A stretch of DNA of 64,000 nt, from contig CM082578.2 of NCBI GenBank assembly GCA_040954595.2, positions 18,060,728 to 18,124,727 on the forward strand, read 5' to 3'. Positions 18,189-54,300 of this stretch are shown here, in pieces. How positions within the stretch are numbered: position 1 is the stretch's first letter; every line of letters starts with the position of its first letter. The notes under the pieces were generated by a model, which saw nothing but the letters and a program-made list of their open reading frames with translations, did no database searches and was not told the origin of the DNA. A program made the translations under genes and the position numbers. Source of the stretch: Balanoglossus misakiensis (lineage: Eukaryota; Animalia; Hemichordata).

Positions 18189-21100
18189 CTAGTCATCTAA
18201 CTGACAGAGCATGGCTACTCCTCTATTAATCCAGTGACTTTCAGGTCTGTCTGACGGAAGATCGATATCCAACACAAAGTTTGTGGAGTGTCCAGTGGTG
18301 GACAGTACTCCACGTCTTGCACTTGTCTTGTAAACTGAAAACGGAGAAGAATTAAGACATTTCAAATCTTATTTTCAGTCATGCATTTGATCAGTTTATG
18401 CTCACTGCGAGATCTCCAAAGACTTGGTTAGTAACCGTGGCAATGGGTTGACAGCCGAGCACAATGTACTTGCAAGGCAAGATTTTGTATGAAATAAGAA
18501 TAGGTACATATCAAGTTGATCAAAAATGTTAACTTATGTGCCATTAACACTGTGGACCATCTGTTGTTTGTACTGTGTTCATGAGAATGTCCCCCAATAT
18601 AGACTACCTAACCATGAGAGATCTTGCAGGGTCTCGTAGAGTTTTCTTCTCAGCTTGTATATACCCTCATTAAAAAAGGTCAAATAAAAATAAATGACAT
18701 TGCCGATACTGTACCTGGACATGCATATGTTGATTTGGGTTGGAAATTTGCTTTCACCCCTGGCTTGAACCAGATCTGAAATATACCGGTTAAAGTTTCA
18801 AACTCTTGCTGTGAAAAAAATGAGTATACAATACTTCAGAAGAGATATGACTGGTGGACTAAGAGAGGTACTCTCATATACACATCAGTGCTGGGTTTGT
18901 ATTATTTGAGCACTGAAAAGAGAACATAAGCTGTCTTTGATTCTTGTCAATGTATCATTCATTTTACAACTTGCCCATATTTCTAAAGCATTTTGTTTTT
19001 CCTGGACACAGATCAGATTGATCTGTTTGTAAGAGAAGCTTTTTCTTGTACATTCATTAAGCACGCAAAGGATACCACTGGCACAGGATCAAAGAGGATC
19101 TTGGGATTGGATTCACTGATAACTGCATTGGTGCGAGACCAGCGAGCTCCTTCCATGAATAATCCTTTGCAGTACACGCCATCACACTGTCAAGTTTAGA
19201 AACATATAATTAACATTCAGAAGCTGTGTGGTTCTGATCCACAGAGGTGAAGACAAAGAAATCTGACAGATATGGTACTATTCATGCATATCTGCACCCA
19301 GTAATAAGCCCATCTGACTTACTGGTTTGGAATTAGTCATGTTGGACTCCTGGTCCACCACTTCAAACTCAAATCCCAGATGATCAATGGGTATTCTGTA
19401 CTTCCTGGCATAGTTCTGCAATGACCCTGTCAGGAATGACTGTGTGAAGTAAAATCCGGATATCCAGAACACATCGGGCATTCCGCTGGTGATCCAGTCC
19501 TGAACAGAGAAAAGGAAAAACTCATTATCTTTATTGGTACAATACGGCATGTATATGGTGGAAGAACCAACACAGAATTTCTGAATACATCAGTGATTGA
19601 CTTGAAGGAATTACCGGTAGAGTAAAAAAAAACACACCATGGAACTGGATTGATATTTGAAACCATTCTGAGTTATCTCATTATCTCAGTTGAACCAGAT
19701 CAACTTACCCTTAGGAACTGTAACCTGGCTATCAGGTCAGCCACATAGCTACCCAGGGGTTTCAGGGAAGGATAAGACTTGGCTGCCCACATGGAAGGAA
19801 CCTAACAGAAGAGACATATAAACGCCAGGTGTGATCACATGTACGTGGTAACAGGTACAGAATACTGTAGTAAAACCAGATAAGATGCAGATGCAATGAC
19901 TTTAAAATCTACGCAGCAGAGGTATATAAAGTTCAGAGAAGTCACATCTACAATGTGAACTTCACATGAGATGTGAAAGTTTTGAATCCCTGGTAACCTA
20001 TTATTATTTACCTTGCCAACCATCATGCTATCAAAGACATCTTCCAATTCAGATGACATGACAACCAAGCCCTTGATCGCTTTCAACACATCATATAAAC
20101 TGCTCCTGACTACCGATGTCAGTCGGTTAAATCGGATCAATTCTTGGACAAGTACTGTGTTCATAGATTCCTCATACAGCACAGGATACTCAGCCTGAAA
20201 CACGAAAGCAATCACATGACGTTACTGAAAATGTCAGTATCACTGGCAACCAAGTCACATGATTGGTGACACAAATCACCTGCTTGTCACATGGATTGTG
20301 GCAACCACAATGGATATGACAGAACTCAGTGACCTCTGCATGCGATATGTGCTGTACAGAAGTTATTGTCATGAGTTCTGCATTGTACTCTGCAGCAGTA
20401 CTTTCACAAGCGCAGCAGAATACTCTGCATTATCATGAAGCCATACAGCTCAATGGTTGAAGGAATTAACTGTATAGGAGTGATGTCATATACATGGCAG
20501 GACTCACCTGCACTTCTTCCAGGTCGAAATCAGGTGGTAATTTAGACAAGATATCACTGGCCAGGTCTTCAATGATCTGCTGAGTTGACCTTGCACCACC
20601 TTGAGCCTACATCAGGAAAAATCACAGAAAAATAAAATGAGTGAACGACCAAACACCTCCAGCCATCAACTTGATTGAGAAAGTTATAGTATATGTTGAC
20701 AGGCTGGGTTTTGAAGGTGAAATTTAAGTCAAGTGAGTGTTCATCAAGATGAGCAGATCTCTGGGGTGAAGACAAAATCTAACAAAGACTTCACCCTTTC
20801 ACCCCCGTTTTCGTCTTTAGAGGTCCAATTTTACCACAGAAAACAGTGGCTTTGGGCCAAACCATGGTGGTGAAAGGGTAAAAGTAAACTTGGAACTATT
20901 GTCAAAAAGAGACAAGCACTAAAATTTGAACAACATGCCACAGGTACTAGGTCACAGTTTTGGTTGCTATGGTCTGGATAAAAAAGTATCGGTACGATGA
21001 CTGGTTACAAGGTTGGAGATATGGTCAGTTTCTTTTTTTCTCCTAATACTAGAAAATTCAAGTCTACAAAAATTGGATGGTCAAAAAATGCACCAAAACA

Positions 21101-24100
21101 TGAAAGTATCCATCATGCTGGTACAGGAACACTTAAAACCATGCCCGAATAATTGCTGATGTCTTTCTGGGTACCTGCCCATACTTGCGTAACAGTGGGT
21201 CAATGAAGAGGTGACTATAGTAAACCTAGATGGTGAAGGTATTAGTATAGAGGAAAGAGAGTTGAAAGACAGTACATTGAAAGGTCATAATAATACCTGT
21301 AAGAAGAAAGTCTGGTTATTGAGATGCTATTTGCATTGAAACATCCCTTTCATGTCATGAAGTCCTGTACAAAACTATAGACACTGCTGGCCATGATCTG
21401 CCGTGAAATCCTACTGATGAGTTTTCCAATCAATTGCATTGTTTATGGGTTAGGCTGTTTTTTGTACACTAATTTTCATGTAGAAATTTAACTTCTGCTG
21501 TTCCAATAAAAGCAATGAAAACATCATATCAAGATCTGACAGCTGGAACTACAATGTATGATATCTGTAGGATTTCACATTGAAAATGACCATGGTCCAA
21601 AACACAACATCACCAATGCACACACAATGTACACAAATGACAGGACTTGATTTTGAAAGGAATGTTACAGACACAGAAAAGTCACAATAAAATAACACAA
21701 AATTCATATCAGATATCAGTTCCCATTTTATCTGTACAAATTATAGTCCTTTAGTTATAAAGCTGGTTAAGATATTCTTTTTACCAAAATGTACATAATT
21801 ACAAATTATAAAAATTTTACTTTAATCTTTAGTTGAATTTAACAGATTTATACACTGGTTAACTAAATTTATACTTTCATTAATGCTATCGGTATTATAG
21901 GAACAAAGACCAAACAACAAGACAATACTACATTGTAGGTCATTAATCCTTCTGACAATTTGCATCAGGAACTGTGAGAGATGATTCTCACATGATCACA
22001 CAAACTCACCCCAAACTTAGAAATGCAAACGGGTGGGTGGGTAAAAAAAAAACACGATCAAATTGGAATGCAAGGGAGTCAAACAGAGGAAAAAAACACA
22101 GATGAAATCTAATATGATTAGTATACAGGTTTTGCGGTTGATGGGAATTTAGATCATTTTGCAGGATTTTCTTCTGGACTGCGACAGACCACGGAGATCT
22201 TTTACCACAATCAGCATGCATTGCAGCAGAGAGTTGAACGTTGCAAAATGAAACAAATGAGAGTCAGGGATTTTCACAAATCACAGTATCCAGGCACAAT
22301 TAAGCTTTAATAGTTGATTGCGCCATGAATTCACTCTCTTTCAGTGAAAGCTGCATGCAATGCATGCTGGGTCTGGAAAATTGTCCATAGGGTGAAGGAG
22401 GAAAATGACATGGTGAGTGAGTGAGTGATTAGTATAAATTAAAACTGTAGGAAGAACGTATGTTACCCCTGGACATTTACATGAACCTTCCAAACATTTC
22501 CCACCCACCAGCTATGGTTGCAATTAGAATGTATATTGTCTTTCTATAGTTTAGATTTCCTTGCAAATCATGTCCAATGACATTTGAAACCATACTTGAT
22601 GGTCAGTACAACTATCTCCCAGTTATCTGATGTACATGTACTTATTTAAAAAGAAAGGAATTAGTCTATAACTTTCTGAGAACAAAATTAAAGAAAGTCT
22701 GAGATAATTTGAAGGACTAACATTTGTGTGCAGTTTCTAGGTTCTTTGGTAATTAATTGTTAATTCCAGAGAACGGTGTTAAAATCCTCTTTGTGAGTAA
22801 ACTATGCTGCTTAGCTACTTACTAAAGGTAAATTAGTATAATCTGAAAGGTGCAGTGACGATCATTTGATCTGCATGCAGTCGTTAGTACAGACAGTCCT
22901 GTTCATGCCAAATTGTGTTAGGTGAGTGCAACTGTATCAAGACTGTCCCAATGTAGCAAACTTCAAACCAATCAAACTGCAGCATGCAAATTGTTCTATG
23001 CATATGCATGAGTGTCTGTGAGCTGTGGTCAGGTTAATATTGAAGTTGGTGAAATTTGGCTGGTGTATATGTTTCTAGAGATGAGTCAAACAGCACACAG
23101 TCACACAGTGTGTTACCAAATACCTGTGAATCTTTGGTCTACAGTAATAATGTGCACAATCCCAAGCCACATTTATTGCGTGTAAAAATGATTTATACCC
23201 ATTGAGATGGATTGGAAGACAATGAGTCAAAGAGAAAATGAAAAAAAAAAAGATTATATTAACATTTCATGAATCTAAAACATCATATATCTTATGATTT
23301 ACAGCAAAAGCTGACGGCATTGTCGAATGCACGTGATATTGTTACATTGACCGGCAAATTACACTTTAGTTTAAACTACTGACATGCATGGAATGGCCAT
23401 TGATGTGTCTATCAACTCACACTAAAATTTGACAAAATTAACATAAATCCATCTCTATATTCTATATAAGGAATTTGTGAGTTGTACATTTATTTTGTGC
23501 TCATAATTTGCTAACCAGTTGGCATTTAAAATGACGTGGAAAAAAATTATTTGACCATGAGTCTAATTTTCACTTTTGTAACCCTAAAATGTAAAAGTAT
23601 TTATCTGAAACAAAAATAATCTGACATAAAAAGGAGGATTACCTGTCGGGGTAGGGTTGTCAATATACCCTCAAACAACTGAAAAGTCTCCTGTTGATCT
23701 TTGGTTATGTCAGCATTTTCATGCAGTCCGAACACCTGATAAAAGACAGAACATGAAGTGAACAGTTATTTCAAAGTTTCAGTCAAGACTGACTGCTGTG
23801 GTTTCATATTGCCAATTCACAGAAACCAGTTGGGAATGATAATTAACACGTATTATTTGAACAATTCCAGCAATGTCTTTCAATTCTCCACTGAGAACAT
23901 GCAGTATAGGAGGAGGTAATATGTAGCTCATGTCCACTAAAATAATTAAGAGTCGAGGTTTTTGAAACTGAAACAGTGTTGTGTTGAACTTCACACTTGA
24001 CTTCCAAGCAGGCAATTGACCTCTGACTGACCTCTGGACTGACGATGAATGGGAGACTTCGGATGTACTCCAGATAACCTTCATACTTGCGGGAATCAGG

Positions 24101-27100
24101 ACAGAAGTACTTTCCACTCTCTGAGTACTGATAGTGATTCTCTGTGATGCTCTTCTGATTGTAGAAATTCTCCAGCAAACTGTTGAGTAGCCGTCTGTCA
24201 TGTTCATCTGTCACTCGGCCACCATAATTGCATTCACCTATCAAGTATGTTAAGGCTTCTAAAGGAACCTCATCATAGTCATTGAGGAACATCTGAAACA
24301 CATGGGAGAAAAATATCATTGTTAGCTATTTGACTCTAATCCTCTGTGCATGAATGATCAAACTTTTGATCACCACAATCATTGTGCTCAATCAACATTA
24401 AAAGTTATAAATTTAGAAGTAGGTTATCAAATATTTTACCTGTTGTTGTCTGACACTAATCCTGAGATCGGATTCGTTGAATTCATAGTAAGTGTTCCAT
24501 CCGAGAGGACCAAACTTCCTGCGTTCTTGTACCAACGCATGGAAGAAACACAAACCAAACAGGAGTCTCTTCCAAGTCTACAGTGGGAAAAAAATAAACA
24601 ATGGGGAGAAAACTTATAAATTGTGATGCCAAACATATTTTATATGAATGTACATGTATATTTGATACAAACAACTATAACTGTTTTGTTGTTGTCCTTA
24701 CCTCAGGTTTGTTACATGCACTGAAGAAGGCTGGATCGGAGATGGGATCATTGAGATAGGACCTCAAGAGATTGGCTCGCAATCCTTTGGGTGGCTCATT
24801 GGTCATTTTCACTCCATTCTGCAACACGGATACGGGAAACTCCGGAGACGGATAACTGGTCAACCACAGCCGGAATGATGGCTTAGTTCTTTCCGGGTCC
24901 GTGATGACCTCCTCACAGATCTTCTCCAGTGTTGGTAGCCATGATGATGCTAAGTGACAGTTCTGCAGCACGACCCAGGTGCCTTGTTCGATTGCCTGTG
25001 TGCAAATTGAAAAGTTTATGAGAAATCGTGTAATTTATCAGGACACCCTGAAAATGCACTAGCAATTAACATAAACACTAACCTTGTCAATCATGGCTGC
25101 TGCAATAGGTCCCTGGCCTTGTCCAAGAGAGATTGTTTGTAATCCCGGACCCGCCATACCTAGAGAACGGTTGTGGTTGGGAAGTGAAAAGACACAAATA
25201 TCAGTGACATTTTCATTTACAACTCTGTGTTGCCTGATTGGCCACAGTATAACCTTGACACCCAACGAGAGACTTGACATTTTAACCTTACCACCAAAGT
25301 GACAGAATGAACAAGCAGTAACTCTGATAATGAAACTTTACAAACAGAATCCTGGTTACATGTACATCATAAAAAATCCAGATTTTAAAAATAATATGAA
25401 GTATGATTCTAAAAGTTTCACTGCTTCAGAGTGACTGTTGTTCATGTTGTTCACTTCAAAAGACAGAATTCGCTCATCACTCTTCTATTTATCAATTTAC
25501 AGAACACATCATGACAATTAAGAAAACTGTATCCTTTACACCCCTGGATATAGGTATAAGCAAAAAAAAAAGACATTACAATGACATTAATGTATCAACC
25601 AGGACCTAATCGTGGGTACTATACAATCCCCTAGGTCCTTTATCATCATGCATTACATTATTATTAATCCTGCAATATAAGAGAACACAGAAAGGCAGCA
25701 TGCAATTCAGTGCAAGCAATTGGCATGCAATGTTTGAAGTTTATTGAAGTGTCAGGGAAATTATCATTTATGCAGTCAGTATATGGCATCCAGTCACTTG
25801 TATGTGTTGTCATCTATATTTTTAGTTAAGAAAATGCTGGACAATGCTTGCATGGACGTCGATAAAAGGCAATAATGACTAAAGTCTGAATGGCGCATTA
25901 TATGCATGCATGTGTACTGGTACATGGATTTTTGTCCCTGTGTGCAGTTTATACTGTGGTGTGATTATACAACTATGGTCTGATGTGAAACATATGACTG
26001 TGCAGTTTAAGTGCAGTGCAAATGGGTTGAAGGACTTCACTATCAAAATGATACTATATTATACAATGCGATTAGATGTTACTAATATGACAAATGCTGT
26101 GAAAGTCTGCATGGCTGTGTTGAGGTAAATCTGATGTGCACAATGGTGATAAGAACATACTGCTGGGTGTGCGTTGCAGTGGACTTGGAAGCGGCTTGGG
26201 TTTGGGAGATTTCCATGCTGATGCAGTAGCAGTAGCAGCGGTAGTGGTGGTGGTGCTGTCACTCTCTCCGGTCACCATGGCAACAGTGGTGGTGTCGGTG
26301 GTGAGGGGGCTAGTGCTCTGTGCGACTGCATCGGGTGTGCGTTCTTCCTTCTCTGAGCCATCATCATGTGGCCCTGACTCGCCCTCGTCCATATCCTCTT
26401 GCTCGTCTTCCGTCAATGTGCTTCCTTCCTGATCTGATACATTTCTAAAAGTAACTCTAGAGCCCTTACGACTTTTGCGACTCTCGGCACTGCTTTTGCG
26501 CGAGTCAGTCTCACTGCCTTCGCTGCCTTTCTGAGAATCGGCATCGGTTTCACTTTGAGCGGTGCTTTCTGTGGGAGGAGAAGACTCCTCAGCCGGCGGG
26601 TCTGTAGAACCCTGTGCTTGCAGCGGCGGTGGTTGGGGCGGCTTGCTTTTACGCAGCTTATCAAAGCCTGAGCTATCAAGAGTGTTGTTTCTGGAGACAG
26701 GTTCTATAATCCCTGTGAAAGTTAGCAGAATTAGCAGCTGAATATGAGAATTGATAGAAGAGAAAAGTGAGATTACGGCGATGAGAGGAACTTGTCAAAG
26801 ATTCAGGAAATCAAGTCAGAGTAAAATCAGGAATCAGCACAAAGATGGAGAATTTATAAAGAATTATGATAATTCAAGATCATCACAAACTGAAAAAAGT
26901 TGACATGAAAATCAGGAGGGTTGCAGTCGGGGGGAGGTCTTCATTCGCTCTGCGTTACAGGAAGGACATGCAAAAAGTTAAGACAGCAAAAATCTAACAT
27001 GAGATGTCCATCAGGATTTGTAGAAGCTAGGTTCCTTTGATCTTATTTTGTTTTGTTTATTATGCCCATGAGCAGACAAAGAGTAAGCAGGTGTCCAATA

Positions 27101-30100
27101 AATTAATGTTGACTCTCTCTGGTGGAATCGAATGCAAAACTTAACACGATATAATGTCCAATATGGTGACATAAACATTCTCAAAAAAATGATACGAGAG
27201 GAACCATGCAGTACCTCTCATTGGATTTTGTTTCTAAAAGATCAAAAGGTTAACATGTTCACTGCACGTCAAAACTAAACTGACACTAGAAGACATACAC
27301 TGACCAATGACATAATTTTAATATGAAGGAAGTATACGAATGAACATGATTTTGGAACAGTTTCCTGTGTTTGGTATGCAAATTCTAGTGTCAGTTTGAA
27401 AACCTAAAATATGATACTCATTAACAACATCTACTGGTTTATAAACTCAACAAAAGATCTAGAAAGTGCAAGGGTGCAGTCTCACCCAAGGTTGGTAATT
27501 GTAAACCTGTCCAACAGTGCAAAAAAGTGCAAGATAGGGTAAAAACAGTTCTGTTATTAATGAGAAAATCAAATGCATGGATCAACCATTAGGACTTTTC
27601 TGTATGTTAAAATATTTCATGTTCCAGTATTTATCAAGATTTCATGTTATCATGAATGTTCATAAAACATGGTTGGAAAATATTTAAGAAATATTTATCT
27701 TAAAAATATATTAGTTTTCAATCTCTGTTTAACATATACAGTATGAGTTTTGATTGAACATTAATTATTATAACACCTACATAATTAACAGTAAATAATT
27801 TATTTGCTAGCCATAATGCTGTAATTTTCCCATAATCCCATGCTTACCTCTTTCTTCAGCAAATTTCAAAAGCACAGCCATTGGATCAGCACCAGGTGAT
27901 AATACGAATATCAGAGGTGATGCGAAGTTCGAGTCCTGGAAACTCCGCTGGAGGTCAAAGGTCGGTGGCTCAACATACGATGGCCCCATTTTCTTCACTA
28001 TGTAGTTTTGTACAGCTGGTGTGATCTGTGGACAAAATGGGAATAATTTGTTTGGGGGACAAAGGGTGACTTTGTCTTTTATAAGAAATCTAAAAATAGA
28101 TAGATCCAAAAATGAAATCATGAAGTATATCAAGAAAGTGATAACGCAGCTGTGACTTATCTTGGGGTAGCGAAAATTGAACAAACTTCGGAAAGATTTC
28201 GATTTTACCTTGTCTGGTCTGATAATTCTGAGTACTATGAGTTTTTGTATGTGATTTAACATGAGTTCCCAGGGTTCAGGAATCTTGTCAATGTGTGGTG
28301 TTGGCGAATCGTACAACTCTTTCCAATCTTCTATCTGCAGAGAAACAATCAAAGCATTATAGTATTATAACATACATGATTTTAACTGTGATATGAGACT
28401 TGCGAGATAGAAATATAAAAATTACTTGTCCTGATCTCTAAAGGAGTGATCTTCAATAAACATAAAATGTAGGGTTGTTTAGGATATCTTTTACTTACAT
28501 TATTCTGGAAGTCTTTCATAAAGCCATCAAATCTATCCAAATCTGATACTCTGACTACTTCCGACCAAGATTTCTCGGACAGCCATTCGCTGGCTGGATT
28601 GGGATATGGATTCTCAAGGGCGACACCCCCTGTTAAGAGGAACCTCCACTCTCTGTCGTCAATCAGACCCCTGTATGGGCAGTGAGAAATGATTAGCATT
28701 GTCAAGGGCACTGCAGGCTCGTTTTGAGTTATCAGTCAAATCCATGCATCATTACAACACTATGAAAAACCCTTTCACCGCCATGATTTGGTCTAAACTT
28801 ATTGTTTTCATGGGTAAAATTGGACCTCTATAGAAGGAAATGGGGGTGAAAGGGTTAAAACATTCACAAGGGTGACAACCCCATGTAATTATCAGTGATC
28901 CATTCATAGGGATTTCTGTAATACTTGAAAAAAATCAGGAAGACAACATAACAATTGTACGCACAGGAGATTTCCTGATTTGGTGATGATTCAAGATACT
29001 TGTATGTTGGAGAAGAACTTACTTAGATTTCTCAATACCAATGCACAACAGGAATGAAAACAACAGCTTGTCTTTTTCAAACAAAGACCTACAGACATTC
29101 TGATAGATGCTGTAAGTGAAGTGGTCATTCAAGTTGGTGATTCTCTCCTCCAAGTCAGAAGTTGGCTTGCTATCTGTGATGGACTGGATACAGAATTGGA
29201 CAATTAGAACATATGAGCATCTTGTGTTCACTGATGAGCAGTCATTGCATGTTAGAGTCAGTACAATCAATGTCCACTTAAAAACTGAGTCAATTTTGCC
29301 ACAACAAAAAATTACAGGATTTAGTAGCAGACAAAAAACATCAGATATATGAAATTATCATTTGGTGTGTGTTAATTATAATTAAATCAAGTGAAACAAC
29401 ACAAACTGACATGAAATAACCCTCCAATTTTTCATTCAACCAAAGAGTATACAATTAAAATTGAATTTCAACTTTGAGACATTTTGATACATGTTTGCTG
29501 TCATCCAAAATTATAGCACGGTGACCCCTAATTTTGATTCTCAATTTTAAGAGTGGATAACCTTAAGTTGCATCGAGCCAAATATGAGAGAAGTTTTAAG
29601 ACTTTGATTTTCGAGGCGCATTCTACCTTAATGGAGCAGGGACTACAACCTATACACTGCATGTGTGCATGCAGTTGGTTGACAGCCAGGGTATATACTG
29701 GTATGTAGGTATAATATACGCATGACTGGAAATTAAGTTATAACACCACCTGTGTGGCAGAACCTATACCAGTCCAAAAAAAGGTGGGAGAGATATACTG
29801 TAACACTGAGAGAGGAGTGAAAAACACAGCTCATGCAAAAAAACAGTGCACACAACAACAATGGTGATGTGTCCTTATTACAAAAGCTGGTGCAAATACC
29901 GTTCCTATGGTGTCTAAGAAGATTGAGTGGATGTAGTCGGTCAGTGCTGGATATTTGGGTTTAAAAGACTGGTGTATAAAAAAATGAAAACATCAAAGCA
30001 TTATGATGTGATTGCATGATGATCATTACAGCAGTGCTGCAGCACAGTACATTGCGTTGCATTTCAGAATACCATGTGAACAAACAAAGACACACTATTA

Positions 30101-30236
30101 CTACCACTCTATACAGCATTCTATCAATACAAAGAATAGAAAGGGACATTCAATTTGTAATAGTGCAATGGATGAAAATGACAACAAAAAAGATGATGTT
30201 GATGTGGAAAAATTATGTTGTTGTTGATGATGATGT

Positions 30237-42300: not shown

Positions 42301-45300
42301 TACAACTTTCATAACAATAATGTTTTTATGTTATATATAAACTAGAAATTTGATACCTTTCAATATACAATTAGTCTCTATATGGCAGTATCTTTAGTAC
42401 TGATATCGACAGACATTATCAATTTCACACTGCTACATAAGAAACTATAGATTCGAACAAAACAAAACATAAAACACAGTCCTTCCACCAGGGACTGCAG
42501 TAGACATGATTGAAGAAGTTAGTGAATGACATTTTATGGGAAGATGTGTTATGGAATACAGAACACAACAAACTTTATACTTGATGTAAATACCCTGGGC
42601 TTTCGCTGCTGTGGAGGGAATGATGGGAAGACGATGAAATCATTGATGATAAAAGACAATATGGTGGGGTGACTGAAACTAGGGTGAGAATACTTCAAAA
42701 TGATGTTGATTCCTGTTTTGGAAATGAGATGGGTCTACCGGCCATCACTGAATATGTGAGATACAAAATAATTTGTTGAATGAAGTTGACAGACCTTTTT
42801 TTAAGTTTGACCAAAACCACCCTGTTTACATGCTGCGTTCATTCATGTATAATATAGTAATTATCTTCTGCAAAAGCTTTAACAGGTACAAATGTAGCAT
42901 ATCAGTATCATGTGTTTTATGCAAAAGCGAGTTGCTTGCAAGAAGAGGCAGCAATGAGACTGATTAGTCAAGTTATTTTATCTGCTGCTTCTCACAGAAA
43001 AAGTCATGATGTTGATTCATGAGACTCACCTTCTGATGTTGTCATCCTGGAGATCTTTCCCAGGCGTCAACAAATGCGCAAACACACTGTTTAACTTCTC
43101 CTTGAACTGGCTCTGCACCACATGCTGGAAAATTGACACAAACCATTGTGATTATTCAGCAGGGAAATACCACAGGGATTGCTAAAATATAGTTCTGATC
43201 TAGTTTTTTTTAATAAATATTACTTGCTGGACCATCTCTGTCATTGTCTGTTTTCTGTATTACCCCCTGTCTTATCAGTTGCTATACAAGCAATCAAGCT
43301 ATCCAGTTTTCTGTTAAGTACCTACTAATTACCTAATCTGTTTACCTCATCAACAGATTAAGTTGTTCTGTCTTATCAGTTACTAATCCAGAATACAAGC
43401 TATCAAGTTCCCTATTAAGCACCTGCTAATTACTTACGGTAATCTGTGTACCCCATTGACAGATTAGGTTGATAAAGTAAACATGTGTGAACCAGTACAT
43501 GTACTGGGTATACTCAAATGCATTCATTCTAACATTTCTGCCAGAATACATAACAAAACCACAACTTTCTGCCAGAATAAATAACAAACCACAACCAAAG
43601 ACTTACTTTGATAATTTTGAAGAATCTTTGTCTATCAGATTCATCCACTAATCTATCATAGAACACACGGTAGACTTCATGAACCCACAGTCGTATGAGT
43701 TTGTGTGATCCCTCTGTGCCGGATGGAACACACTTGGGTTGCACCAGTATCATACCCTGTACGACGCGGGCAAAGTCTCGCAAGTTGAACAAGTAGTGTG
43801 ATTTTGCCGGTGTAGGCAAGAAGTTAGTGATGGCTTGGGTGTAGACTTCAGTTGTGGCATAGATTATTATCTGAAAGGAAAAACATAAGTAACAAGTTAA
43901 TTAGCAAATTTCCCCTCTAAATAATGCAATGAAGTGATGAAGAATGATAATACTGCATTGTCACTTACTCTCGAGAACCTTTTCAGACTAGTTTCAAATC
44001 CTTTATTGAAATGCCATTCCATGATGGGTGCAAAAATAGTCTTCATGGTTTCTTCATCAAACGAGTCAATAGCAATGACGTTGAAATGACGTAGAAATCT
44101 TGGAGTGACTGGATTGCGACCCCCTCCTGGTGGTCCCATGGCAGACACTATACTGATGCCAACCAGCTCTAATATACTGGTATCTTTCCTGGAATTGACA
44201 AAAACATAAAATTCAATAAAACATTAATAATGTCAATCAGGTACCACATTGTGAAAATTACATGTAGTACTTCATATACATTACTCTCAACACTTGGATA
44301 GAGATTGGTTTGTATAAAGTTACTTACTGGTAATGTAAACTACTACAATACATATTTAAGTGTGTCACACATACCTGTCAAACCAGAATCCATGGTCTAT
44401 CCACTGTCTTAGTAATTCAATCGGAGGTTGTGCACCATACTTCTCTCTCAGAGGCATGTTCAAATCATCAACAAAGACGATCAGTTTCTTTCCGACCGGG
44501 GGACCATAAATACCTTTCCTACGTCTGCAACACAATACAAATCACCACTTCAATATCAGTAATAGTAAATGATGAGCTTTTGAACGTGATTTCAATTATT
44601 ACACCATCATGACCATAACAGCCCAACCTGATAGGGGTAGCAAGACTGCCCTGTGGGGAATATGACTATATGCCACAAGGCCATAGATCTTTCCAGCCAC
44701 TTTTTATAGCAGTTTTTCTCAATCTCACAAGTACACCTCATTCAGTCAAGAGCATAGAATAATACACCAGGGGATGTTTTGTACTGCTTGCATGATAGCA
44801 GTGTGTTCTGACAGAACCTACGAAATGTCTTAAGAGCCTGACATGAAGGTGATTTTTTTTATACAGAACTGCATGCATACATCACCCTACCTGTCAAGCT
44901 TGGAGAAGATAATATCTTGAGTTTGGTTGGCAGACGTCTGTGCCGAGAAGTTGACATTGTTTGGAATATAGTTCCCTTTAGCCAATTCAAGAAGGTAACT
45001 GTTGGTGATTGCTGACTTGCCAGTCCCAGTCAGACCGACAAATAGTAGTGGCTTGTCGTTGAGAATTAATTTCTTCAGGAAGTACAGCTGTCTCTCGGTG
45101 TCAACTGTTTTGATGATCAGTTCATTGACCTGACAGTGGAAATGGAAGATATGAGATGAGAATGAGGAAATACTATGTGAGATTTGGTGAGTGGAAGCTT
45201 GTTGTATGTTGTGGGTGACTGCAGCTTCCATGGTTTGTAACAGCCATGTTTGTAGGGGTTGTCTTCTGTATGGACTTTAAGAGAAGTTGTATGGATAGTT

Positions 45301-48300
45301 ATTGTGGTTGTCTCAAAATTGTTGTGTGAGAACAAATGAGCACTGATCAGTTTGGGATTCAAGTTTTTATTTTAATCGGGGTGGGCGGGAGGTCATATTT
45401 ATTCCGACAAAGTAGATGGTGGCAGGGATTATAGAATTTGGAAGTGTTTGTGCAATGTATACCAAGTTTACAATGAATATATCAAGTACTAAATCTAATA
45501 GCAACAATCACCATAACATCTCCTGCCAGCCGACAATTTTATGTGCACAGATTTTACTATTATCTGGACTTCATTGTACTTTCACCCACTCATTGCCAAA
45601 TTCATTTTTTAACACTACAGTGTAGACCAGCAGGAGATTGTTATCTACACATCTTATGGTGAACCCTCACCAAACATGAAAATACATGTAATGAATATAC
45701 TATGTAGTTTATCTCTGTGTAATTGAATGGATGTTCACATGATTATCTAAATCTGTATCAAAACATAAATTCCTTAATACCCACAGATGATAAATTCATG
45801 AAAAAATAATGTGCTTAGTCCCTTTTATCCACTCATTTTACCCTTACATTTATCTGTGTATGATATGTTTTTATGAATGTGAAGTTTTCCCAAACCTGGA
45901 GCCCTGTGAATAAATTAGCATCATTTCTAATTTCAAAACAATGAGCCCATCTTCAATAAAATCCATCTACATGAATCCAGGGGGGTAGGATTTTCAGGGG
46001 GGACCACCCATTTTCCAAGAAAAATTAGGGGGAACCATGGAAAAAGACACCAGGAAAATAAAAAATCCTCTGTTTTACATATAACATATATTCTGTAGAT
46101 TCTATGGTATTCTGCAGAAAATTGTACAAATTGAACGAATTTATCATTCAGCGTTTTTCACAGTTGTTCCATCAAATTCATAACTCTGTGTACAGTTCCT
46201 TTTACATGTAGTATAACTGCAATATGTCAGATTTCTGCAAGGATGTTTTCTCTAGTGTCTACAGGGGCAGAATGCTTGAGAAAACGGTTAGTATTCTTGA
46301 GAATGCACAGATGGCGGTTAGTGGTGTCTCACAGCAAGCAATGTTCCAGTACCAAAAGAAACCGATGGTTATTAAACTAAAATTCCACACTCTCGTGATA
46401 ACTAGCAGCACTTAGTGATAACCGGTGATAACCAACTCTCAGCAATGACAAGGCACTCAAATCACTTTTTTTTTTCTCTTCATCAACACACACATGGGTG
46501 CATGTGAACATGTCTTACCATAATCTGGAAGTCCCAGAGTTTCTATTCAAATACAACATTAGGCAAAAGAATGTCAAGACAAGGCATGCAGTCGTCATGC
46601 AAAGTTTCAAAAGAAGGTTGCAGGTCAATTAGGAAGTCAAAAAGACAAGTCAAGAAAGAAAGAAAAAGAAAAAAATGAGAAACAAAGTGCTAACCACAGA
46701 AAAAGTGTGTCATGGGTACACATGATATAATCAACTTAATTCCTATTAAAATGATAAAAAAAACTATGACAAATATCTACAAATAATTTGATAACTTTGG
46801 ATGGTAGGTGTACTACACTGAGCCACACTATAATAATTTATTTTTACCATCGGTTGGTCTTCGATCTCTGATCCCTCCTACAAACAGGTATCACAATTTT
46901 GTCAGCTCATTAGAAATTTGACTCACCCACAAAATCACACTAAAAATCTCATGCTAACTCGCCTTAGTAGTAAAAAAAGTTTAAGACATTGGCAAATATC
47001 TTACTATTTCATATGAAATACTAGTTCAACAAAACTGAATCAAATCAATTATAACAATTAAACACAATTACTAAAATATTTAAAAGCTAAATGAGGAAGT
47101 TAGAATACAGTAAAGATTTAAATAAAAGTTAAAACACAGCAAATTTTAAGAGTATATTAAAAGCAAGGTCACCTTTGTGTCATCATCATAATGATCCTGC
47201 GGCCTTGAGGAGCGTTCTTTTAACATTTGTGCTATAAGCTGATGATAGCATTGATTTGCAGCAATAAAAGATAGCCAAGGCAGAGCATACAAATTGTTAA
47301 TTATTAATTATCATTATAATACATAATTATATTATAGATATTACAGAGACAACAGAAATTGTGCATGCTTGTGCACTGTTATGCAATACTGCCGGTTACT
47401 GTACTGTTATGCCATGCTGTGTCAGTGTGTGCTGTTATGTCAATCACTGTACTGGTAAGCAATGCTGCAAATGTAATGTTATGCAATGTTGCAAGTAACT
47501 GTGTACTGTTATGTAATGCTGCCGAGTTTGTATGTGCTGTTATGCACTGATGTAAAGTCAATGTACGCTGTTATGCAATCCTGAAAGTTAAGCTTGTGAT
47601 GTTATTTTCCATTGCACTAATATTACCTTAAAATATGAAACCACTATATGCTCATTGGTTTATAGCTGAAACTCTTTTTGAATAGTGAATATTTCTTTTT
47701 CAAAGTCAAATACATGTTTATCTCTTTTTTATAGAACAACTTTGAAGTCACAAAGATTCTGTTGCAGTTGTCAAAATGTATGATTTTATGTTCTATTTTG
47801 ATCTTTTCTGGTCGACATAATGTTGACAGGACAGCCAAGTAACCGACAAGTCCATGTTGAAGTTTTTATGTTGTCCACTTTTACAGTAAGGCTTTGGTCA
47901 ATATCAGTGGTTTGACTCCACTTTGCAGCACACACAATGAGCATTGTTTTCATATTTCCAAGCAGCAATATTTCAGGAATATTTGCACAGTCCATCAGAC
48001 AAGCAGATGATATATTAAGATTTCAATATTGAGTGACAAAAACAAGAAATCATGCAATACCTTGCACCTCTGTGCGATCACAAAACCGGTACATCGTGTG
48101 AAAACAGACGACACAAATTGGTTTCAGAAACATCACAGGCAAAGTGCCATGCCAGGAACAAAAGATGCGGGGTAAGTCAGTACATAATCATGGAAGTGGG
48201 AGAGGTCAGTGTTATAGCAGAGAACAGTACATAAACACATCAGGTATTAGTGAGAGAGATGCAAACAATATCACAGAGGTTTTTCTAAAAAAAGATAGCA

Positions 48301-51300
48301 CTATAGGTTAAGGTGATGCATTCACATAGACGTATTTTCTCTGAGTTTCTGTCTGAAAAATCACAACTCTACGTTGCAGCAGATTAGCAAGTGAAACTTC
48401 AAAGTATCTAAAAAAGTTAGAATTAAGCTAAGTCAGTCTACTCAATCCATTCATGCATTGAGGAAGAGCTGAAAATCCAATATAAGATTTCCAAATCAAG
48501 TATAAAACCTACACAGGAATACCATCTTGCAAAAAAACGAGTACAAACCTTTGCTTTCTCTCCTATGCTGACTGGTTCGATGAGTCCTTCCCATCGATGC
48601 CACGATCCGTACATCTTGCGGATGTACACATACTCAAAGATGCTGCCTTTCTTCGGGATGAGAAGACTCCTTGGAAACTTCAGTTCTTTGGGTCTTGGGT
48701 GCTTTGCTGTTGGCCCGGTTTCCGAGTCACATAGATGTCGGAAGAAGTCATTGAATCTGGAATAAGAATGAAGGAATGAGGTTAATTGTTTGGACATTTT
48801 TGTCAGTGATTGTCTTTGTAATATGGTAGGGGAAAAGTCACTCTGTCATTACAAGATTTTTATTGAATGCAAATAAATGTCAACAGAATGACAACGAAAG
48901 TTTCATCACATTATCTAACTGGAATTTGTCTTTTTTCAAACACCATTCTTGGCTTTGGGATCTAGATGTGGAAATGGCTGTATGTTGAAACTACATGATT
49001 TATTCATCTTCAACTTGTAGACAGTGCGCTTTCTTGCACGAGACTTATACTTACTTTCCTTTGGAGGAGACATCAATATTGCCACCTGCCGACCAGACCA
49101 ATGAAAACAGGAATTGACATACTAACATAGCAGTCCTTTCCTCTTCCAATTTCTGGTCAGACACTGATGATGTCGTTGCTTCTTCCTCAAGTTCACTGTC
49201 AGAGTCATCAGCATTCCTACAGGTGCAAATCGTTACAACATTTATCAATTTTTGGTAGCTATCAGCTCAGACTTGTGGAATTGAGGAAAGACTTCATTTT
49301 GTTTTTAAAGGTGTATGATGCAAATCGCTAGTACTTCAGTTCATCCCAAAGCTATTCACATGCTTTTTTCATGCATTTTTCCTTTGTTTACTTGTGTTTG
49401 TGTGTATCTCCAGAGTGCATGAGTGTGCATGCAATGTACATGTACATGGTGATTGCAGTCTGTGTGTGTACGAGTACACGTGTGTGTCATGTGTGTGTCA
49501 GAGTAAAGCAATATACCATTGACTAATATTTAATTGCATAAAACAAATTTTGAAACTGAGTTTATTTCAATGTTCATGGGAACTTTTATAAATAAATCCA
49601 TTCAATGTGAATATTTAATATTTATAGACACATTCAAAACAAGTACTTCACCTCTATTAAATTTGTTAGTGTAACCTAAGAAAATACACCAACACTATTG
49701 AAAGTCAGTTGTGTAAAACCAAAGGGTTCTGTTTATGAATGACAGTGATGTGAGATAGTTGTCAGTTTTTGTTTTTATCTTTTGTGTGTTTTTTTGTTAG
49801 TGAGAAGAGATGAATCCCCAAACACATATTAGTGGTAACTTTCTGTATTTCTCAATTAACAGACTGTAAGAAAATACAGCAAAATGGGAAAGAACATGCA
49901 CAAAATAATTTTAACTCCAGAGCCACTATCCCACCAAAAGTATTACAGAAAAAAATCAAAATGCAAAATTTTGTAGTTACAAAGGAAAAAAAGAGGTGAA
50001 AAACATTGACACTGAAAATTGGGGAAAAATTAAAACAAGAAAAATCACTTTTCTTATTTTAACTTACCAAGAATGTTGCCAGGCAAAAAATATTGGCAAA
50101 ATACATAGATTATAAAACATTACATTACAGGAACAATACGAGTTTGCAAAAAAATGTTTTATGAGGGAGAAAAATCTGAGTTTTTCTTGAGGCTGAAGAT
50201 TTTTATAAAAAAGTAGATTTTTTTAAAGTTTTGGTGGGGGGGGGGGGGGGGGCTTTTATCGAGATTAGGGAGTCATGATTTGTGTAGTTGCACCTACCGG
50301 AACTTGATATTGCTGTTTATTATAAGATACCATACACACACCATTAGGACACACAGTAAGAGTCAAACCACATGCATTGTAGTGGCAGAGCACACAGCGT
50401 ACAGAATGGTAATATGCCAACGTGATCCAGCCGGGGTAGATTCGCCATCAGAGGGTTCAGAGGTCACAGATCAAAACATTAGCAAATCACACAACATAAG
50501 TGCAGGTTTATTTTTTGCGTCCAGGTGGTAGTGGTGCGGCAGAAACACACGAGGCAGTGAGCGTCACACAGAAAGCAGAAAGGTGCCATGTTGGGTGAAA
50601 AGAGCAAGCAAAACAAATGATGGTGTCATTAGCATGAGTTATCGTGTAGTGCTGAGCAGTGATGCTTGGCTGAAAATTACAATTCCTTATCAAATTTACT
50701 ACAAAAATCATTCTATGGACTGATTCTTCATTTATGTGTTGGAAGTCCAAGTGTGAGCACTTTGCATTTATTCTTACGTTCTGACTGCTCGATTCTAATG
50801 AAATATATTTACTGTTATAATTCTGGTGCTCATTATATCTCTCACTGGATGATATCACTAGGCAAGGTGTATGTGTATTTACTAGCAAATTATCTACTTT
50901 TAACAGAGCACTCTATGAAAGCTTTATGACTTTGTATAAATTTAAATGTCTGCTTTAAATATGAGCTTAATCCGTTTAGACTTTAGCTTTCTATATTAAA
51001 TGATACTGTGATAATACTACGCAGTGGTGCTGTATGGAACTTTACTTCTAAGCTCTACTTTTATTATAAGGCTAATTAAGAATAGCAGATATATCTATTT
51101 CAAACAAGAAAACATTTCTGTTAACAATCTGGAATGCAAGTGTTGATTAAATTCAACAGTATTTCATCGAGTGAAGATCTTGAATAATTTCCACACTTTT
51201 ACCATTTTTTTTTCTGTTAAAGATGTATCATGTTCTATAAGCAAAGATCAACTTGTTCTTTTCAAAAAATGTTGAAATTGAAAATAAATTAAAATAATAT

Positions 51301-54300
51301 TTTAATTCCCATAAATCATCTACATTTACGATCCCTACAAAAAATGTTTGTACCCTGTATATTATCTTTCCAAACATATCTACACTCTGCAAATTGACTA
51401 TAAGCTACCTCTCTATTGAAATGAAAGCATGATTGATTTTTCCAAGAAACGTTGGCTGTTTTGATGACAATCCAATGCCTGAAATCTTACCGTATCTCAT
51501 CCATCATTGTACTGTACAAAGACAGCATGTTCTTGGTCATATGCATCTTGGAAATCTTCACATATTGTTTACAATGTCGAGTTACAAACTCAAGGCAAGG
51601 CTCCAGTAACCAGTCAAACAATAGCTGTGAACAAAACATAACAAGACAAAATCACATGAAGTCTAGATGACACTTGATATTTTACAAACAAATAGGGAAA
51701 ACGTGTGACAAGATAGTCAGAATGCACCAGTTGAGTGCATACTGTGCTCAACCCACCTCAATCGAATGTTTTTGTTGTGGAGTGATAAAATCTGGCAGTT
51801 CGTACTGAATCCAGGATGTTACCAAAGGTTTCGTTCCGAGCTGGATCGGCTCCATGTAGATCATCCCACATCTGTGATTGCCATAAATCACAATATCATT
51901 AATTTAATATCAGACATCGACAGAATTTATCTATCATGATTTTTAATACAGATTTTGAAACATTATTTCATTTTTCAATTCAAAATATAATTGTAGCCAT
52001 GAATAACCATGTTATTGTAACAAACTCACCTGCTGACAGTGGCAGGGGATGCCTGCTCCAAGTCTGCAGGTTCAAATATCATATTCTGTTTGGTGTTCAT
52101 CTGGATGATTTCACCACTCATTAAGCAAAGCTACACAAGAAAAAAAATAGAGTCAAAAAAAATGATTTAATAACTAAGTTTCTCCTTTTAGGACATTTTC
52201 TTTGTGCAGTCATGAAAAATTGTAAGTACCTTGGTTTCAAATTGTTGGAAGAAGAAATTGAAATCATGAATTGAGTCTTACCTTTTTATTGTCGTCTAGG
52301 ACAGTGTTCATATTTTCTATCCAGACTGCATCTACAGGGCCGTCAAAGACAATCCACTTTCTTTCTCTTGTTACACTTGATGCGTGTTCACGGAAAGTGT
52401 TTGCAAGAACTCCATCAGACCATTCATGGGATACAGGATCAAATCGGCCATACAGCTGACCCATGGTCACAGCTTTGGGGTTGATGATACGGTAATCAAC
52501 CTATGAAACAAAATTGTGTAAATAATCAGGAATTTTTTCATGTGCTAGTAGAAACACAAATCAAGACATCACATTAAAATGTCACAGATAAAAGAAAGCA
52601 ATGTAAAATACAACTGCAGTAGTTTTTGAAGTTTGGACTAATTTTATGACTCAAGTACTTAGCTTGAGTATGATGTGCTCATTTGCTTAGCTATAATCAT
52701 TATAGATGTTTGTTTTGCTTTTCATGAATGTACTGACTTAGCAATGGCAGTACAATGCATCCACATCAAGACAGTAGACTGTTTGATGCCATATTACACA
52801 AAGTCAGTTTGAGTCTTTCAGAATCTCATGTCCTCACACACTGTACATTGACTCTGACTTACTGCATTTTCTTCCATGTAGTTTTTCTTGTCCAGATCAC
52901 CGAGGGCTGCAGCCAGTGCTTTGAATGCTGAGGTCTTCCCTCCAAGTGTATCACCAACAATCATCAGACCATGACGTACCAAAATCATTTCATAGATCTA
53001 ACATGATGGGAAAAATGTAGCAATATAGTCCTGCTGTCAGAGATGGTTCTCTAAAAAATGAACTGACTAATAACACAAAGCTATGGTAACAGTAACTATT
53101 GTTGTTTTTTTGGGTCAGAATTTGTGCTTTGCAGTCTGAGTACATGTACACTTGTACTAATCTCTAAGCATGTTGAAATGTGCAGGGTTTACTGAGAGTA
53201 ACAACTTAAACAACCAAAAGTCATGTAGTCCTTTTACATTACTGAGTCTGACTCAAATATTGCAATTCACATAAATTGGACCAGATCTGACAATTAACAA
53301 AATTTTGAACTGACCTGTATGATTTTCTCAATAAACCAAGTGACAGCTTGCAGCTTCATCTTGGTGATATTTTCCACCAAAGCCTCTTCCAGAACAACTC
53401 TGTCAGGTTTGGGCAATTCCACACCAGGGAATAAATCTGATATAATACCCTCAAATAGGGGTATATCTTGTGATAAGAACTGTGGGGTACAAACACAAGG
53501 TGATTATTTGAATTCAATATTACATTTGGTTGAATATTATTATGGTATACTTGGTTGAATTGAAAATCTAACCATAGAAGTGGAAATTAGATTTACATGA
53601 AAACATCCAAGTGATCAGAGTGATCAGGGACATTAATAAAAATAGAACAAGAACTAAATTGTGGAAAATGGGAGAAAGGGGGTAAAATAAGTGCTGGAAG
53701 TTGTCTGTGGCTCAAGTGTGGTATACATACCTTGGGTAAATTGACATCATTGATAGATCTGAGAACCAGTTTATCTTCTGTGATGTCTGGATATTTCAGT
53801 TTGAGGTTACCAGCTGCGGTTAGCACTGACTTGACTGCTCTCATACCGTAGTCATAGTGATGCTGGGATGATAACTGTGTGAAGCAAAAACACAAGGTTG
53901 TTCCAACATTAAGTCAGCAAGGAATAATAAACTAACTCTGACAGCATGTTGTCTAGTTTTTGTAGGGACTTTGAATTTGGCATATTCTTGCAAGATTTGT
54001 CTAAATGTGCTACTTACTTGTTCAGAGCAGAGCCGATAGGTGGCCACAATCTTAGCGGCTAATGCCCTGGCATCAACAAATCCCATGGAGTACAAACTGA
54101 TTTCTGCAATCAGTGCATAGTCAGGTACCATCATGGCAACTGTTCGGAACAGTACCTGTAGTGAGTATAAATACAGTGAGTTGTCAGTTACAGTGAACAT
54201 ACTTAGTATCATGTGAGACTTATTAGACTGGAAGAAGTACTGGTTTATAATAAACTTGAATTTTTTACTAGGTACTGTATACAAATTGAAAGCAAAATAT

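What the first reader, a model, noticed from the sequence alone, without database searches (positions are those of the whole stretch)
20607..51490. Hidden modular-splicing system: about 17 frame-preserving cassette exons and microexons in seven loops around the dynein AAA ring
Seen: most introns in this gene are under ~1 kb, but seven motor-domain introns are 2-3.5 kb (49217-51490, 45130-48548, 40475-43029, 32735-34806, ~29184-31807, ~25160-27847, 20607-23642). Each contains AG/GT-bounded segments of 3n length, stop-free in that intron's own phase (2,0,2,0,0,1,0), with sizes 15; 9,66,30,24; 9,15,12,60; 60,18; 96,69; 21,552; 15,6 nt. The flanking exons join perfectly without them. Insertion points are approximately the AAA2 lid, pre-AAA3, post-AAA3, the AAA5 hairpin, the AAA5 small domain, AAA6 and the C-terminal linker. 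I know of no description of such combinatorial microexon arrays in an axonemal dynein. Inference: cell-type-specific motor isoforms (sperm, ciliary band, sensory or neural cilia). The shortest candidates could individually be chance.
Basis: partly seen in the sequence, partly recalled or inferred. Interest (0 to 1): 0.9.

Follow-up and report, generated by a model that had tools for sequence, protein, structure and literature searches.

The report
Optional loop exons in ciliary dynein
This animal gene for a cilium-bending motor protein has seven unusually long introns, and about four to eight small in-frame segments inside them are likely optional exons that would add extra loops, one 184 residues long, to the motor ring, though no RNA data were available to confirm that they are used.

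Summary
The window holds a 68-exon, minus-strand class-7 inner-arm dynein heavy chain, most likely DHC7D, the DNAH3 sister paralogue that mammals lack. The seven long introns, their phases and their positions around the AAA ring are confirmed. The count of 17 cassettes is not: unscored AG..GT, 3n, stop-free segments number 701 versus 711 in shuffles. Scored, 11 units reach 12 bits versus 3-4 in shuffles and 5-7 in wrong-phase or antisense controls, so roughly 4-8 are likely real. Three are strong. A 552-nt coding-like exon (0/100 shuffles) would put a 184-residue acidic insert into AAA6. The 96-nt and 60-nt exons have edges that copy the neighbouring exon's edge with silent changes, rebuilding the helix the intron interrupts. 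An orthologous locus has its longest intron, with a significant in-phase candidate, at the same AAA6 site. Bivalve DNAH3 RefSeq isoforms already show motor-loop microexon clusters, so the kind is not new. No RNA evidence was obtained; tissue specificity is untested.

The parts
18189..63241 (-). Class-7 single-headed inner-arm dynein heavy chain gene, likely DHC7D; 68 exons in the window, the first ~440 codons lie beyond the window's end
49217..51490 (-). Long intron 25 (2274 nt, phase 2), AAA2 small-subdomain loop
50298..50312 (-). 15-nt candidate microexon, 11.8 bits; chance level (17/100 shuffles)
45130..48548 (-). Long intron 27 (3419 nt, phase 0), AAA2-AAA3 connector; DNAH3 models of Ptychodera and Dimorphilus have 26- and 7-residue inserts at this same junction
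48061..48069 (-). 9-nt candidate microexon, 12.1 bits; uncertain
47173..47238 (-). 66-nt candidate, 8.9 bits (inner acceptor at 47196 gives 24 nt, 10.8 bits); uncertain
46848..46877 (-). 30-nt candidate, 16.8 bits (4/100 shuffles); likely real
46519..46542 (-). 24-nt candidate, 12.3 bits; uncertain
43030..43058 (-). 3' end of constitutive exon 32, of which the 60-nt cassette's end is a diverged copy
40475..43029 (-). Long intron 32 (2555 nt, phase 2), AAA3-AAA4 connector, at the end of a short helix before a strand
42739..42747 (-). 9-nt candidate, 10.3 bits; uncertain
42594..42608 (-). 15-nt candidate with NAGNAG 12-nt variant, 14.1 bits; possible
41707..41766 (-). 60-nt cassette (18.6 bits, 2/100 shuffles); last 9 codons homologous to the end of exon 32; strong candidate
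32735..34806 (-). Long intron 49 (2072 nt, phase 0), first turn of the AAA5 PS-I three-strand insert
33853..33912 (-). 60-nt candidate, 12.8 bits; chance level (26/100 shuffles)
29184..31807 (-). Long intron 52 (2624 nt, phase 0), four residues before the end of a helix in the AAA5 small subdomain
30590..30685 (-). 96-nt cassette (17.5 bits, 2/100 shuffles); first 10 codons homologous to the start of exon 53; holds an RPx[ST]A motif at 30638-30652; strong candidate
30225..30392 (.). Trinucleotide microsatellite ~200 nt downstream of the 96-nt cassette; reads as a YCAY-rich run on the sense strand
29900..29968 (-). 69-nt candidate, 13.6 bits; possible
29154..29183 (-). 5' start of constitutive exon 53, of which the 96-nt cassette's start is a diverged copy
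25160..27847 (-). Long intron 56 (2688 nt, phase 1), loop between first helix and next strand of AAA6 large subdomain; longest intron of orthologous locus L069 is at the same site
27486..27506 (-). 21-nt candidate, 12.6 bits; possible
26161..26712 (-). 552-nt cassette, 184 residues rich in S/T/P/E/D, net charge -13, GC 0.55; RVxF-type motif at 26447-26458; inner acceptor 26568 and inner donors 26554/26515 could give shorter forms; strongest candidate
20607..23642 (-). Long intron 61 (3036 nt, phase 0), low-confidence linker before the C-terminal domain; longest intron of orthologous locus L054 is at the same site
23124..23138 (-). 15-nt candidate, 11.3 bits; chance level (57/100 shuffles)
22010..22015 (-). 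6-nt candidate, 5.3 bits; chance level

Best explanation
This is an inner-arm dynein gene (likely DHC7D) whose seven long motor-domain introns likely hide about four to eight optional in-frame exons, with the 552-, 96- and 60-nt ones best supported, and including them would graft extra, mostly unstructured loops onto an otherwise intact motor ring. Shown: the gene model, the intron outliers, the coding signal and the edge homologies. Inferred: skipping gives the canonical motor. Where the intron falls inside a structured element, the cassette arose by partial tandem duplication of the neighbouring exon's edge, so it rebuilds that helix and the new sequence lands in the adjacent loop. The inserts most likely act as switchable surfaces for phosphorylation and partner docking (an RVxF-type PP1 motif and PKA-type sites in the 184-residue insert, an RPx[ST]A site in the 96-nt insert), tuning the motor in a subset of ciliated cell types rather than changing its chemistry. 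The regulation and the tissues are untested.
For: The 552-nt unit scores 75.8 bits versus a shuffle maximum of 18.5 (40.7 in block shuffles), 0/100. Its codon score is +0.35 per codon inside, -0.16 before the acceptor and -0.39 after the donor; GC is 0.54 versus 0.38. The 96-nt start matches exon 53's start in 6 of 10 residues, 4 of the 6 through different codons; the 60-nt end matches exon 32's end in 5 of 9 residues, 2 of the 5 through different codons. Each is the only stretch to reach that score among 593 and 775 intronic controls. In the stand-in models these two introns fall inside or at the end of helices; introns 27, 49, 56 and 61 fall in loops or turns. Units at 12 bits or more: 11 real versus 2.7-3.1 in shuffles (0/200) and 4.0 in a Markov null (max 10 of 100). 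Long-intron sites are more length-variable among 48 homologues than 46 short-intron sites (p 0.008). In orthologous loci the longest of 14 introns (L069) and the longest of 5 (L054) lie at window sites 56 and 61; the L069 intron holds a 93-nt in-phase unit beaten by 0/300 shuffles. DNAH3 locus L004's longest intron lies one codon from site 49 and holds an 81-nt unit (2/300). Skipped exons tend to have longer flanking introns (PMC1802581). AAA1 motifs are intact.
Against: No transcript or protein containing any cassette was found, and none of the 230 full-length homologues is an orthologue (best identity 66%). Real-sequence controls narrow the excess: at 10 bits, 15 real versus 9-14 in wrong-phase and antisense readings; at 12 bits, 11 versus 5-7. 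There is no 3n excess by length alone. Introns 25, 49 and 61 have no unit above chance. The L054 intron's best unit is not significant (49/300). L069 has an ordinary 328-nt intron at site 52 and none at site 49. No DNA or peptide similarity links window and orthologue cassettes. UGCAUG is enriched about twofold, but so is its reverse complement. The linear motifs are only mildly non-random (RVxF 58/2000, RPx[ST]A 23/2000, PKA-type 240/2000 shuffles, uncorrected). The splice matrices were trained on this gene's own sites, and the structure models are of a 64%-identical stand-in.
Confidence: 0.62

Rival explanations
1. The strong segments are constitutive exons, so this species makes one insert-laden motor, like DNAHX, rather than several isoforms.
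For: DNAHX shows that animal dyneins can carry many fixed, disordered inserts (PMC11785096). The window's AAA2 loop is already 12-13 residues longer than in most homologues. The acceptors of the 96- and 552-nt units are in the constitutive range (10.2 and 8.1).
Against: Their donors (4.3-4.7) lie below all but one of 67 constitutive donors. The flanking sub-introns are mostly 300-1400 nt against a median of 229. Skipping gives exactly the homologue length at sites 49 and 52 in 225 of 227 and 225 of 225 sequences. DNAH3 isoform sets show such loops to be optional. AAA1 motifs are intact, unlike DNAHX.
Confidence: 0.13
2. The introns are long for non-coding reasons (regulatory DNA or drift), and the segments are chance pseudo-exons or decaying relics of local duplications that are no longer spliced.
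For: 701 versus 711 unscored segments; three introns have nothing above chance; antisense controls nearly equal the real count at 10 bits; no sequence conservation with orthologues.
Against: A 184-codon open, codon-biased, GC-rich stretch bounded exactly by in-phase splice sites. Silent-site divergence with residues kept in two duplicated edges, which neutral decay would not give. An independent significant unit at the same site in L069. Repeats do not explain the lengths.
Confidence: 0.15
3. The 552-nt segment is an alternative last exon read through its donor to a stop and an intronic polyadenylation site, giving a truncated motor, or the long introns hold internal promoters.
For: The frame stays open 28 codons past the donor to a stop; one AATAAA lies at 25745; the donor is weak (4.3).
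Against: The coding signal and GC drop at the donor (-0.39 per codon, GC 0.38). AATAAA is no denser in long than in short introns (19 in about 18 kb versus 14 in about 13 kb). This reading does not explain the 96- and 60-nt edge copies.
Confidence: 0.06
4. The long introns house exons of a nested antisense gene or non-coding RNA genes.
For: Antisense exon-like units at 10 bits (14) exceed their shuffle mean (7-8); a 120-codon antisense ORF lies at 31462-31821.
Against: No antisense coding signal apart from the microsatellite, a 9.7-bit 20-codon scrap in intron 52 and the mirror of the 552-nt exon. No Pfam match reaching a cut-off in 10 of 10 intronic ORFs. No Rfam match at E up to 0.5 in 20500-51600.
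Confidence: 0.04

Closest known systems
Metazoan DHC7D (Kollmar 2016, PMC5100056), sister paralogue of DHC7B/DNAH3
   Same: Class-7 single-headed inner-arm dynein; groups with L054 and L069 (support 97) beside, not inside, the DNAH3 clade (support 96). The text of Kollmar's Fig. S13 lists a D group next to B, with ctenophore, cnidarian, spiralian, sea urchin, amphioxus, Ciona and frog members.
   Different: No named DHC7D or DNAH12 sequence was in my tree, so the name is by elimination. The passages and supplement text I read describe no optional exons for it.
DNAH3 RefSeq isoform series in bivalves (oysters, Mytilus, Dreissena, scallops)
   Same: Clusters of small in-frame optional or mutually exclusive exons in motor-domain loops of a class-7 dynein; single DNAH3 models have inserts at the window's site 27.
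   Different: A different paralogue, with two motor sites (window residues 2049 and 2895) that are not among the seven. Inserts are 4-23 residues; none approaches 184 residues or lies in AAA6.
DNAHX (PMC11785096)
   Same: An animal axonemal dynein with multiple, partly disordered inserts, absent from mammals.
   Different: Derived from the outer-arm alpha chain, with constitutive inserts in stalk, MTBD and AAA4 and degenerate AAA1 motifs. The window's gene is class 7, its AAA1 motifs are intact, no long intron lies in the stalk, and the inserts appear optional.
Exons born by tandem exon duplication (mutually exclusive homologous exons; e.g. amphioxus and tunicate DNAH3 linker exons)
   Same: Homology to a neighbouring exon with silent-site divergence.
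   Different: Only 9-10 codons at one splice edge are copied and the phases allow addition, not replacement, of a whole exon.
Neural microexon programme (Srrm3/4 eMIC; Rbfox, Nova), recalled
   Same: Tiny 3n segments with weak sites in long introns.
   Different: Upstream UGC (7 of 16 versus 0.29 of constitutive exons), UGCAUG and YCAY are only slightly raised; the best-supported units are not microexons.

Membership tests
Class-7 (IAD3) axonemal dynein heavy chain | Best matches are DNAH3/7/12; full linker, AAA1-6, stalk and C-terminal domain | tested here: met
   PDB ranks; 61% to DNAH3 over 3620 residues; Pfam on stand-in
DNAH3 (DHC7B) orthologue | Falls inside the DNAH3 clade | tested here: not met
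   separate clade with L054/L069; at most 66% identity to DNAH3 proteins
DNAH7 (DHC7A) orthologue | Falls with DNAH7-type sequences | tested here: not met
   L023 and L010 match DNAH7 best and sit in another clade
DHC7D | Sister to DHC7B/DNAH3 within Metazoa | tested here: met
   topology against the text of Fig. S13
DHC7D | Groups with named DHC7D sequences and apart from DNAH12 | tested here: inconclusive
   No named DHC7D or DNAH12 in the tree; single exons rank DNAH3 first in 2 and DNAH12 first in 2 of 4 PDB searches
DNAHX-type non-motile dynein | Outer-arm alpha origin and degenerate AAA1 Walker A, sensor I and II | tested here: not met
   against 104, 105
Cassette (skipped) exon | AG/GT bounds, phase match, 3n length, open frame | tested here: met
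   for 17 of 17 stated lengths
Cassette (skipped) exon | Signal above chance (splice plus coding score, or protein-level constraint) | tested here: inconclusive
   Met for 552, 96, 60 (intron 32) and marginally 30 nt; not for the rest singly
Cassette (skipped) exon | Both inclusion and skipping junctions in transcripts | not testable with these tools
   No run id was available to lay reads
Cassette (skipped) exon | Sequence conserved in related species | tested here: inconclusive
   Only distant orthologues (75% protein identity) held; site shared, sequence not alignable
eMIC/Srrm-dependent neural microexon | 3-27 nt, upstream UGC, neural inclusion | tested here: inconclusive
   Motif counts; expression untested; defining features recalled

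The most novel reading that the evidence does not exclude
DHC7D, a poorly known inner-arm dynein lost in mammals, is a splice-configurable motor. Five to seven ring loops are switched by cassette exons in different ciliated cell types, including a 184-residue phospho-regulated, PP1-docking insert in AAA6. Copying a few codons of the neighbouring exon's edge lets new exons enter at introns that interrupt helices. The switchable sites persist across phyla while the inserted sequences turn over beyond recognition.
Probability: 0.3. Interest if true: 0.75.

Novelty: new variant of a known kind. Interest (0 to 1): 0.52.

Why it matters
Animals build many kinds of beating cilia from few dynein genes, and heavy-chain diversity is usually credited to gene duplication. 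Optional loops on one motor ring would be a second route and would give defined isoforms to compare in gliding assays and cryo-EM. Gleave et al. found no PS-I or H2 insert in the AAA6 large subdomain (PMC4047620), so a switchable 184-residue insert there would be unusual. The edge-copy design is a testable rule for how exons can be gained inside folded domains, and it can be searched for genome-wide. Practically, gene models of this paralogue probably miss these exons.

Tried and rejected
No whole genome held. No RNA holder listed for 43000-52600; no reads were laid. Protein searches did not retrieve a full-length orthologue: exon 1 against longer proteins gave 0 hits among 37 candidates; P0038 gave 23 non-orthologues; profile A3 listed the best 120 of 2740, none above 66% identity to the window. 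The 50% representative search gave 60 hits, nearly all short fragments, best 54%. Alignments A1 and A2 scattered the exons and were not used. The Atlas gave no usable hit for the 184-residue insert, and Pfam none. Earlier-findings look-ups were empty in 3 of 3. Rejected as causes of intron length: transposon or tandem repeats (only a ~90-nt dispersed repeat and one microsatellite), nested coding genes and Rfam RNAs. The +283 length at site 49 in P0114 is a duplicated stretch. The insert at site 27 in P0165 looks like a repeat in a hypothetical model and is not counted as support. The downstream-of-donor figure was in the wrong frame and is replaced. The tree is the quick search, not the careful one. 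Five of the L069/L004 junctions were not resolved automatically (2 in L069, 3 adjacent plus 1 further in L004 printed as unresolved; the site-56 junction was set by hand). Two papers asked for by id were not held, so the PP1 RVxF and PKA consensus patterns are recalled. No complex prediction was run.


Full report
Gene model. The minus strand carries a dynein heavy chain in 68 exons from 63241 to a stop near 18189. Spliced, it gives 3630 residues with no internal stop, and all introns are GT-AG. About 440 N-terminal residues lie beyond the window (offset to P0069). Sixty introns are 87-900 nt (median of all 67 is 229). All seven are in the motor domain. Tandem or dispersed repeats do not account for their length.

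Identity. Single exons match human or bovine DNAH3, 7 and 12 best. The protein is 61% identical to oyster DNAH3 and at most 66% to any full-length homologue fetched. In a 41-row quick tree it forms a clade (support 97) with two genomic metagenome loci, L054 and L069, beside the DNAH3 clade (96) and away from DNAH7-type rows. Kollmar 2016 (PMC5100056; I read passages, section 19 and supplement file 2 passages plus its part 5; file 1 and the tree data were not visible) lists a fourth metazoan class-7 group, DHC7D, next to DHC7B/DNAH3, from ctenophores to frog. The gene is therefore most likely DHC7D; no named DHC7D or DNAH12 was in my tree. AAA1 Walker A and B and sensors I and II are intact.

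Are the cassettes there? For each of the 17 lengths claimed, a phase-matched, stop-free AG..GT segment exists. That alone means little: 701 such segments up to 100 nt occur, versus 711 in shuffles. I scored units by splice matrices from the gene's own 67 sites plus a codon log-odds term. The best unit per intron was reached by 0, 2, 2 and 4 of 100 shuffles in introns 56, 32, 52 and 27, and by 17, 26 and 57 of 100 in introns 25, 49 and 61. Non-overlapping units at 12 bits or more number 11, against 2.7 and 3.1 in two shuffle types (0 of 200 reach 11), 4.0 in a fourth-order Markov null, 2 in 11.9 kb of short introns, and 5-7 in the five wrong-phase or antisense readings of the real sequence. At 10 bits the real count (15) is close to those controls (9-14). 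Length modulo 3 shows no significant excess. My estimate is four to eight real exons; which of the tiny ones are real cannot be told from sequence.

Three strong cases. (1) 26161-26712 is a 552-nt, phase-1 open segment of GC 0.55 in introns of GC 0.36, scoring 75.8 bits; the coding signal begins at the acceptor and ends at the donor. It encodes 184 residues rich in S, T, P, E and D with net charge -13 and has no Pfam or Atlas match. (2) 30590-30685 (96 nt) starts [10 protein letters not shown], while the next constitutive exon starts [10 protein letters not shown]; 4 of the 6 shared residues use different codons. (3) 41707-41766 (60 nt) ends KDLTDEDVR, while the previous exon ends KDLQDDNIR; 2 of the 5 shared residues use different codons. 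Each is the only stretch to reach its score among 593 and 775 splice-anchored intronic controls. Silent change with residues kept points to selection on a translated product (inference).

Where the inserts go. I folded two parts of L001, a DNAH3-type stand-in 64% identical to the window protein, and mapped the sites. Site 27 is in the AAA2-3 connector loop, site 49 at the first turn of the AAA5 three-strand insert, site 56 in the loop after the first AAA6 helix, and site 61 in a low-confidence linker. Site 25 follows a helix in a region where the window is already 12-13 residues longer than most homologues. Sites 52 and 32 are the exceptions: 52 lies four residues before the end of helix 259-272, and 32 at the end of helix 613-618 just before a strand. 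These are the two sites whose cassettes copy the interrupted edge, so inclusion would complete the helix and move the extra sequence into the neighbouring loop (inference). Across 48 homologues the seven sites are more length-variable than the 46 short-intron motor sites (p 0.008). Gleave et al. (PMC4047620, passages) describe the AAA5 insert as stabilising the AAA4/5 cleft and note that AAA6 large has no such inserts.

Relatives. L069 shares intron positions with the window. Its longest of 14 introns (1360 nt) is at site 56 and holds a 93-nt in-phase unit of 20.5 bits, reached by 0 of 300 shuffles, with other phases and the antisense strand at 8 or less. L054's longest of 5 introns (4254 nt) is at site 61, but its best unit is not significant (49 of 300). 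By rank alone the two coincidences have a chance of about 1/5 x 2/14, or 0.03 (my arithmetic). Against: L069 has a normal intron at site 52 and none at site 49, and no sequence similarity links the inserts. In the sister gene DNAH3, locus L004's longest intron lies one codon from site 49 with an 81-nt unit (2 of 300). Ptychodera and Dimorphilus models carry 26- and 7-residue inserts at the exact site-27 junction. Twenty DNAH3 isoform sets compared show microexon series at two other motor loops in bivalves, mutually exclusive linker exons in amphioxus and tunicates, and a 4-residue tail option in echinoderms. Among 230 full-length homologues, none an orthologue, none has an insert of 5 or more residues at sites 52, 56 or 61.

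Mechanism. Shown: gene, introns, sites, coding signal and edge homology. Inferred: the default mRNA skips the cassettes and encodes a canonical motor. Weak donors (4.3-4.7 for the two largest, below 66 of 67 constitutive donors) and long flanks, typical of skipped exons (PMC1802581, passages), make inclusion conditional. The inserts look like disordered regulatory surfaces: an RVxF-type PP1 motif beside two PKA-type sites in the AAA6 insert (patterns recalled; 58 and 240 of 2000 shuffles) and an RPx[ST]A site in the 96-nt insert matching the CDKL5 preference (PMC6293279, abstract and passages; 23 of 2000 shuffles). These are leads only. Splicing-factor motifs are not convincingly enriched. I put 0.62 on optional exons, 0.13 on constitutive inclusion, 0.15 on non-functional sequence and 0.10 on other uses.

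Novelty. Searches for dynein heavy chain with microexon, with alternative splicing of the motor domain, and DNAH3 with cassette exon listed no paper describing this, judged from listings; the library lacks most subscription papers. Kollmar states that some genes have motor-domain splice forms without listing them. DNAHX (PMC11785096, parts 1-3 of 7 read, supplements not seen) is the nearest insert-laden dynein but differs in class, motifs and constitutive inserts. The kind, optional loop exons in a class-7 motor, is already in database annotation of DNAH3. The number of sites, the 184-residue AAA6 insert and the edge-copy design are what is new. Verdict: real in part, overcounted, unproven without RNA; interest 0.52.

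Noticed in passing
window 56175-56367 (-): Rfam RMST_9 (lncRNA) matches at 77.5 bits over dynein coding exon 12; the Rfam family probably derives from a conserved dynein exon.
   Followed up: no
window 9584-14871 (-): Secreted-type protease gene with CUB, immunoglobulin and trypsin domains (Pfam on three ORFs).
   Followed up: partly
window 3655-4571 (-) and about 6000-9140 (+): A LIN37 gene and a WD40 gene resembling RRP9/U3-55K (LIN37 and WD40 by Pfam; the RRP9 name is recalled).
   Followed up: partly
window 20790-20879, 28769-28858, 9271-9360, 37477-37518: A ~90-nt dispersed repeat in both orientations, MITE-like.
   Followed up: no
window 30225-30392: 56-copy trinucleotide microsatellite ~200 nt downstream of the 96-nt cassette; a YCAY-rich run on the sense strand, poly-Asp on the other.
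   Followed up: partly
window 31462-31821 (+): 120-codon antisense ORF starting with ATG at the 5' end of intron 52; no Pfam match and no codon signal.
   Followed up: yes
window 49055-49216 (-): Constitutive exon 26 carries an acidic loop 12-13 residues longer than in most homologues, directly after long intron 25.
   Followed up: partly
P0069/P0185/P0168/P0070 clusters: Bivalve DNAH3 isoforms vary at window residues 2049 and 2895 by 0-23 and 0-8 residues, including mutually exclusive microexons; my searches found no paper on this.
   Followed up: partly
L004 911-991 (+): Lysine-rich 81-nt in-phase candidate exon in the longest intron of a DNAH3 locus, at the AAA5 PS-I turn.
   Followed up: partly
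L054 3370-3372, 4036-4044, 5254-5262 (+): 3- and 9-nt AG..GT segments in the 4.25-kb orthologous intron, two with AAG acceptors like the window's 6-nt candidate; not above chance singly.
   Followed up: partly
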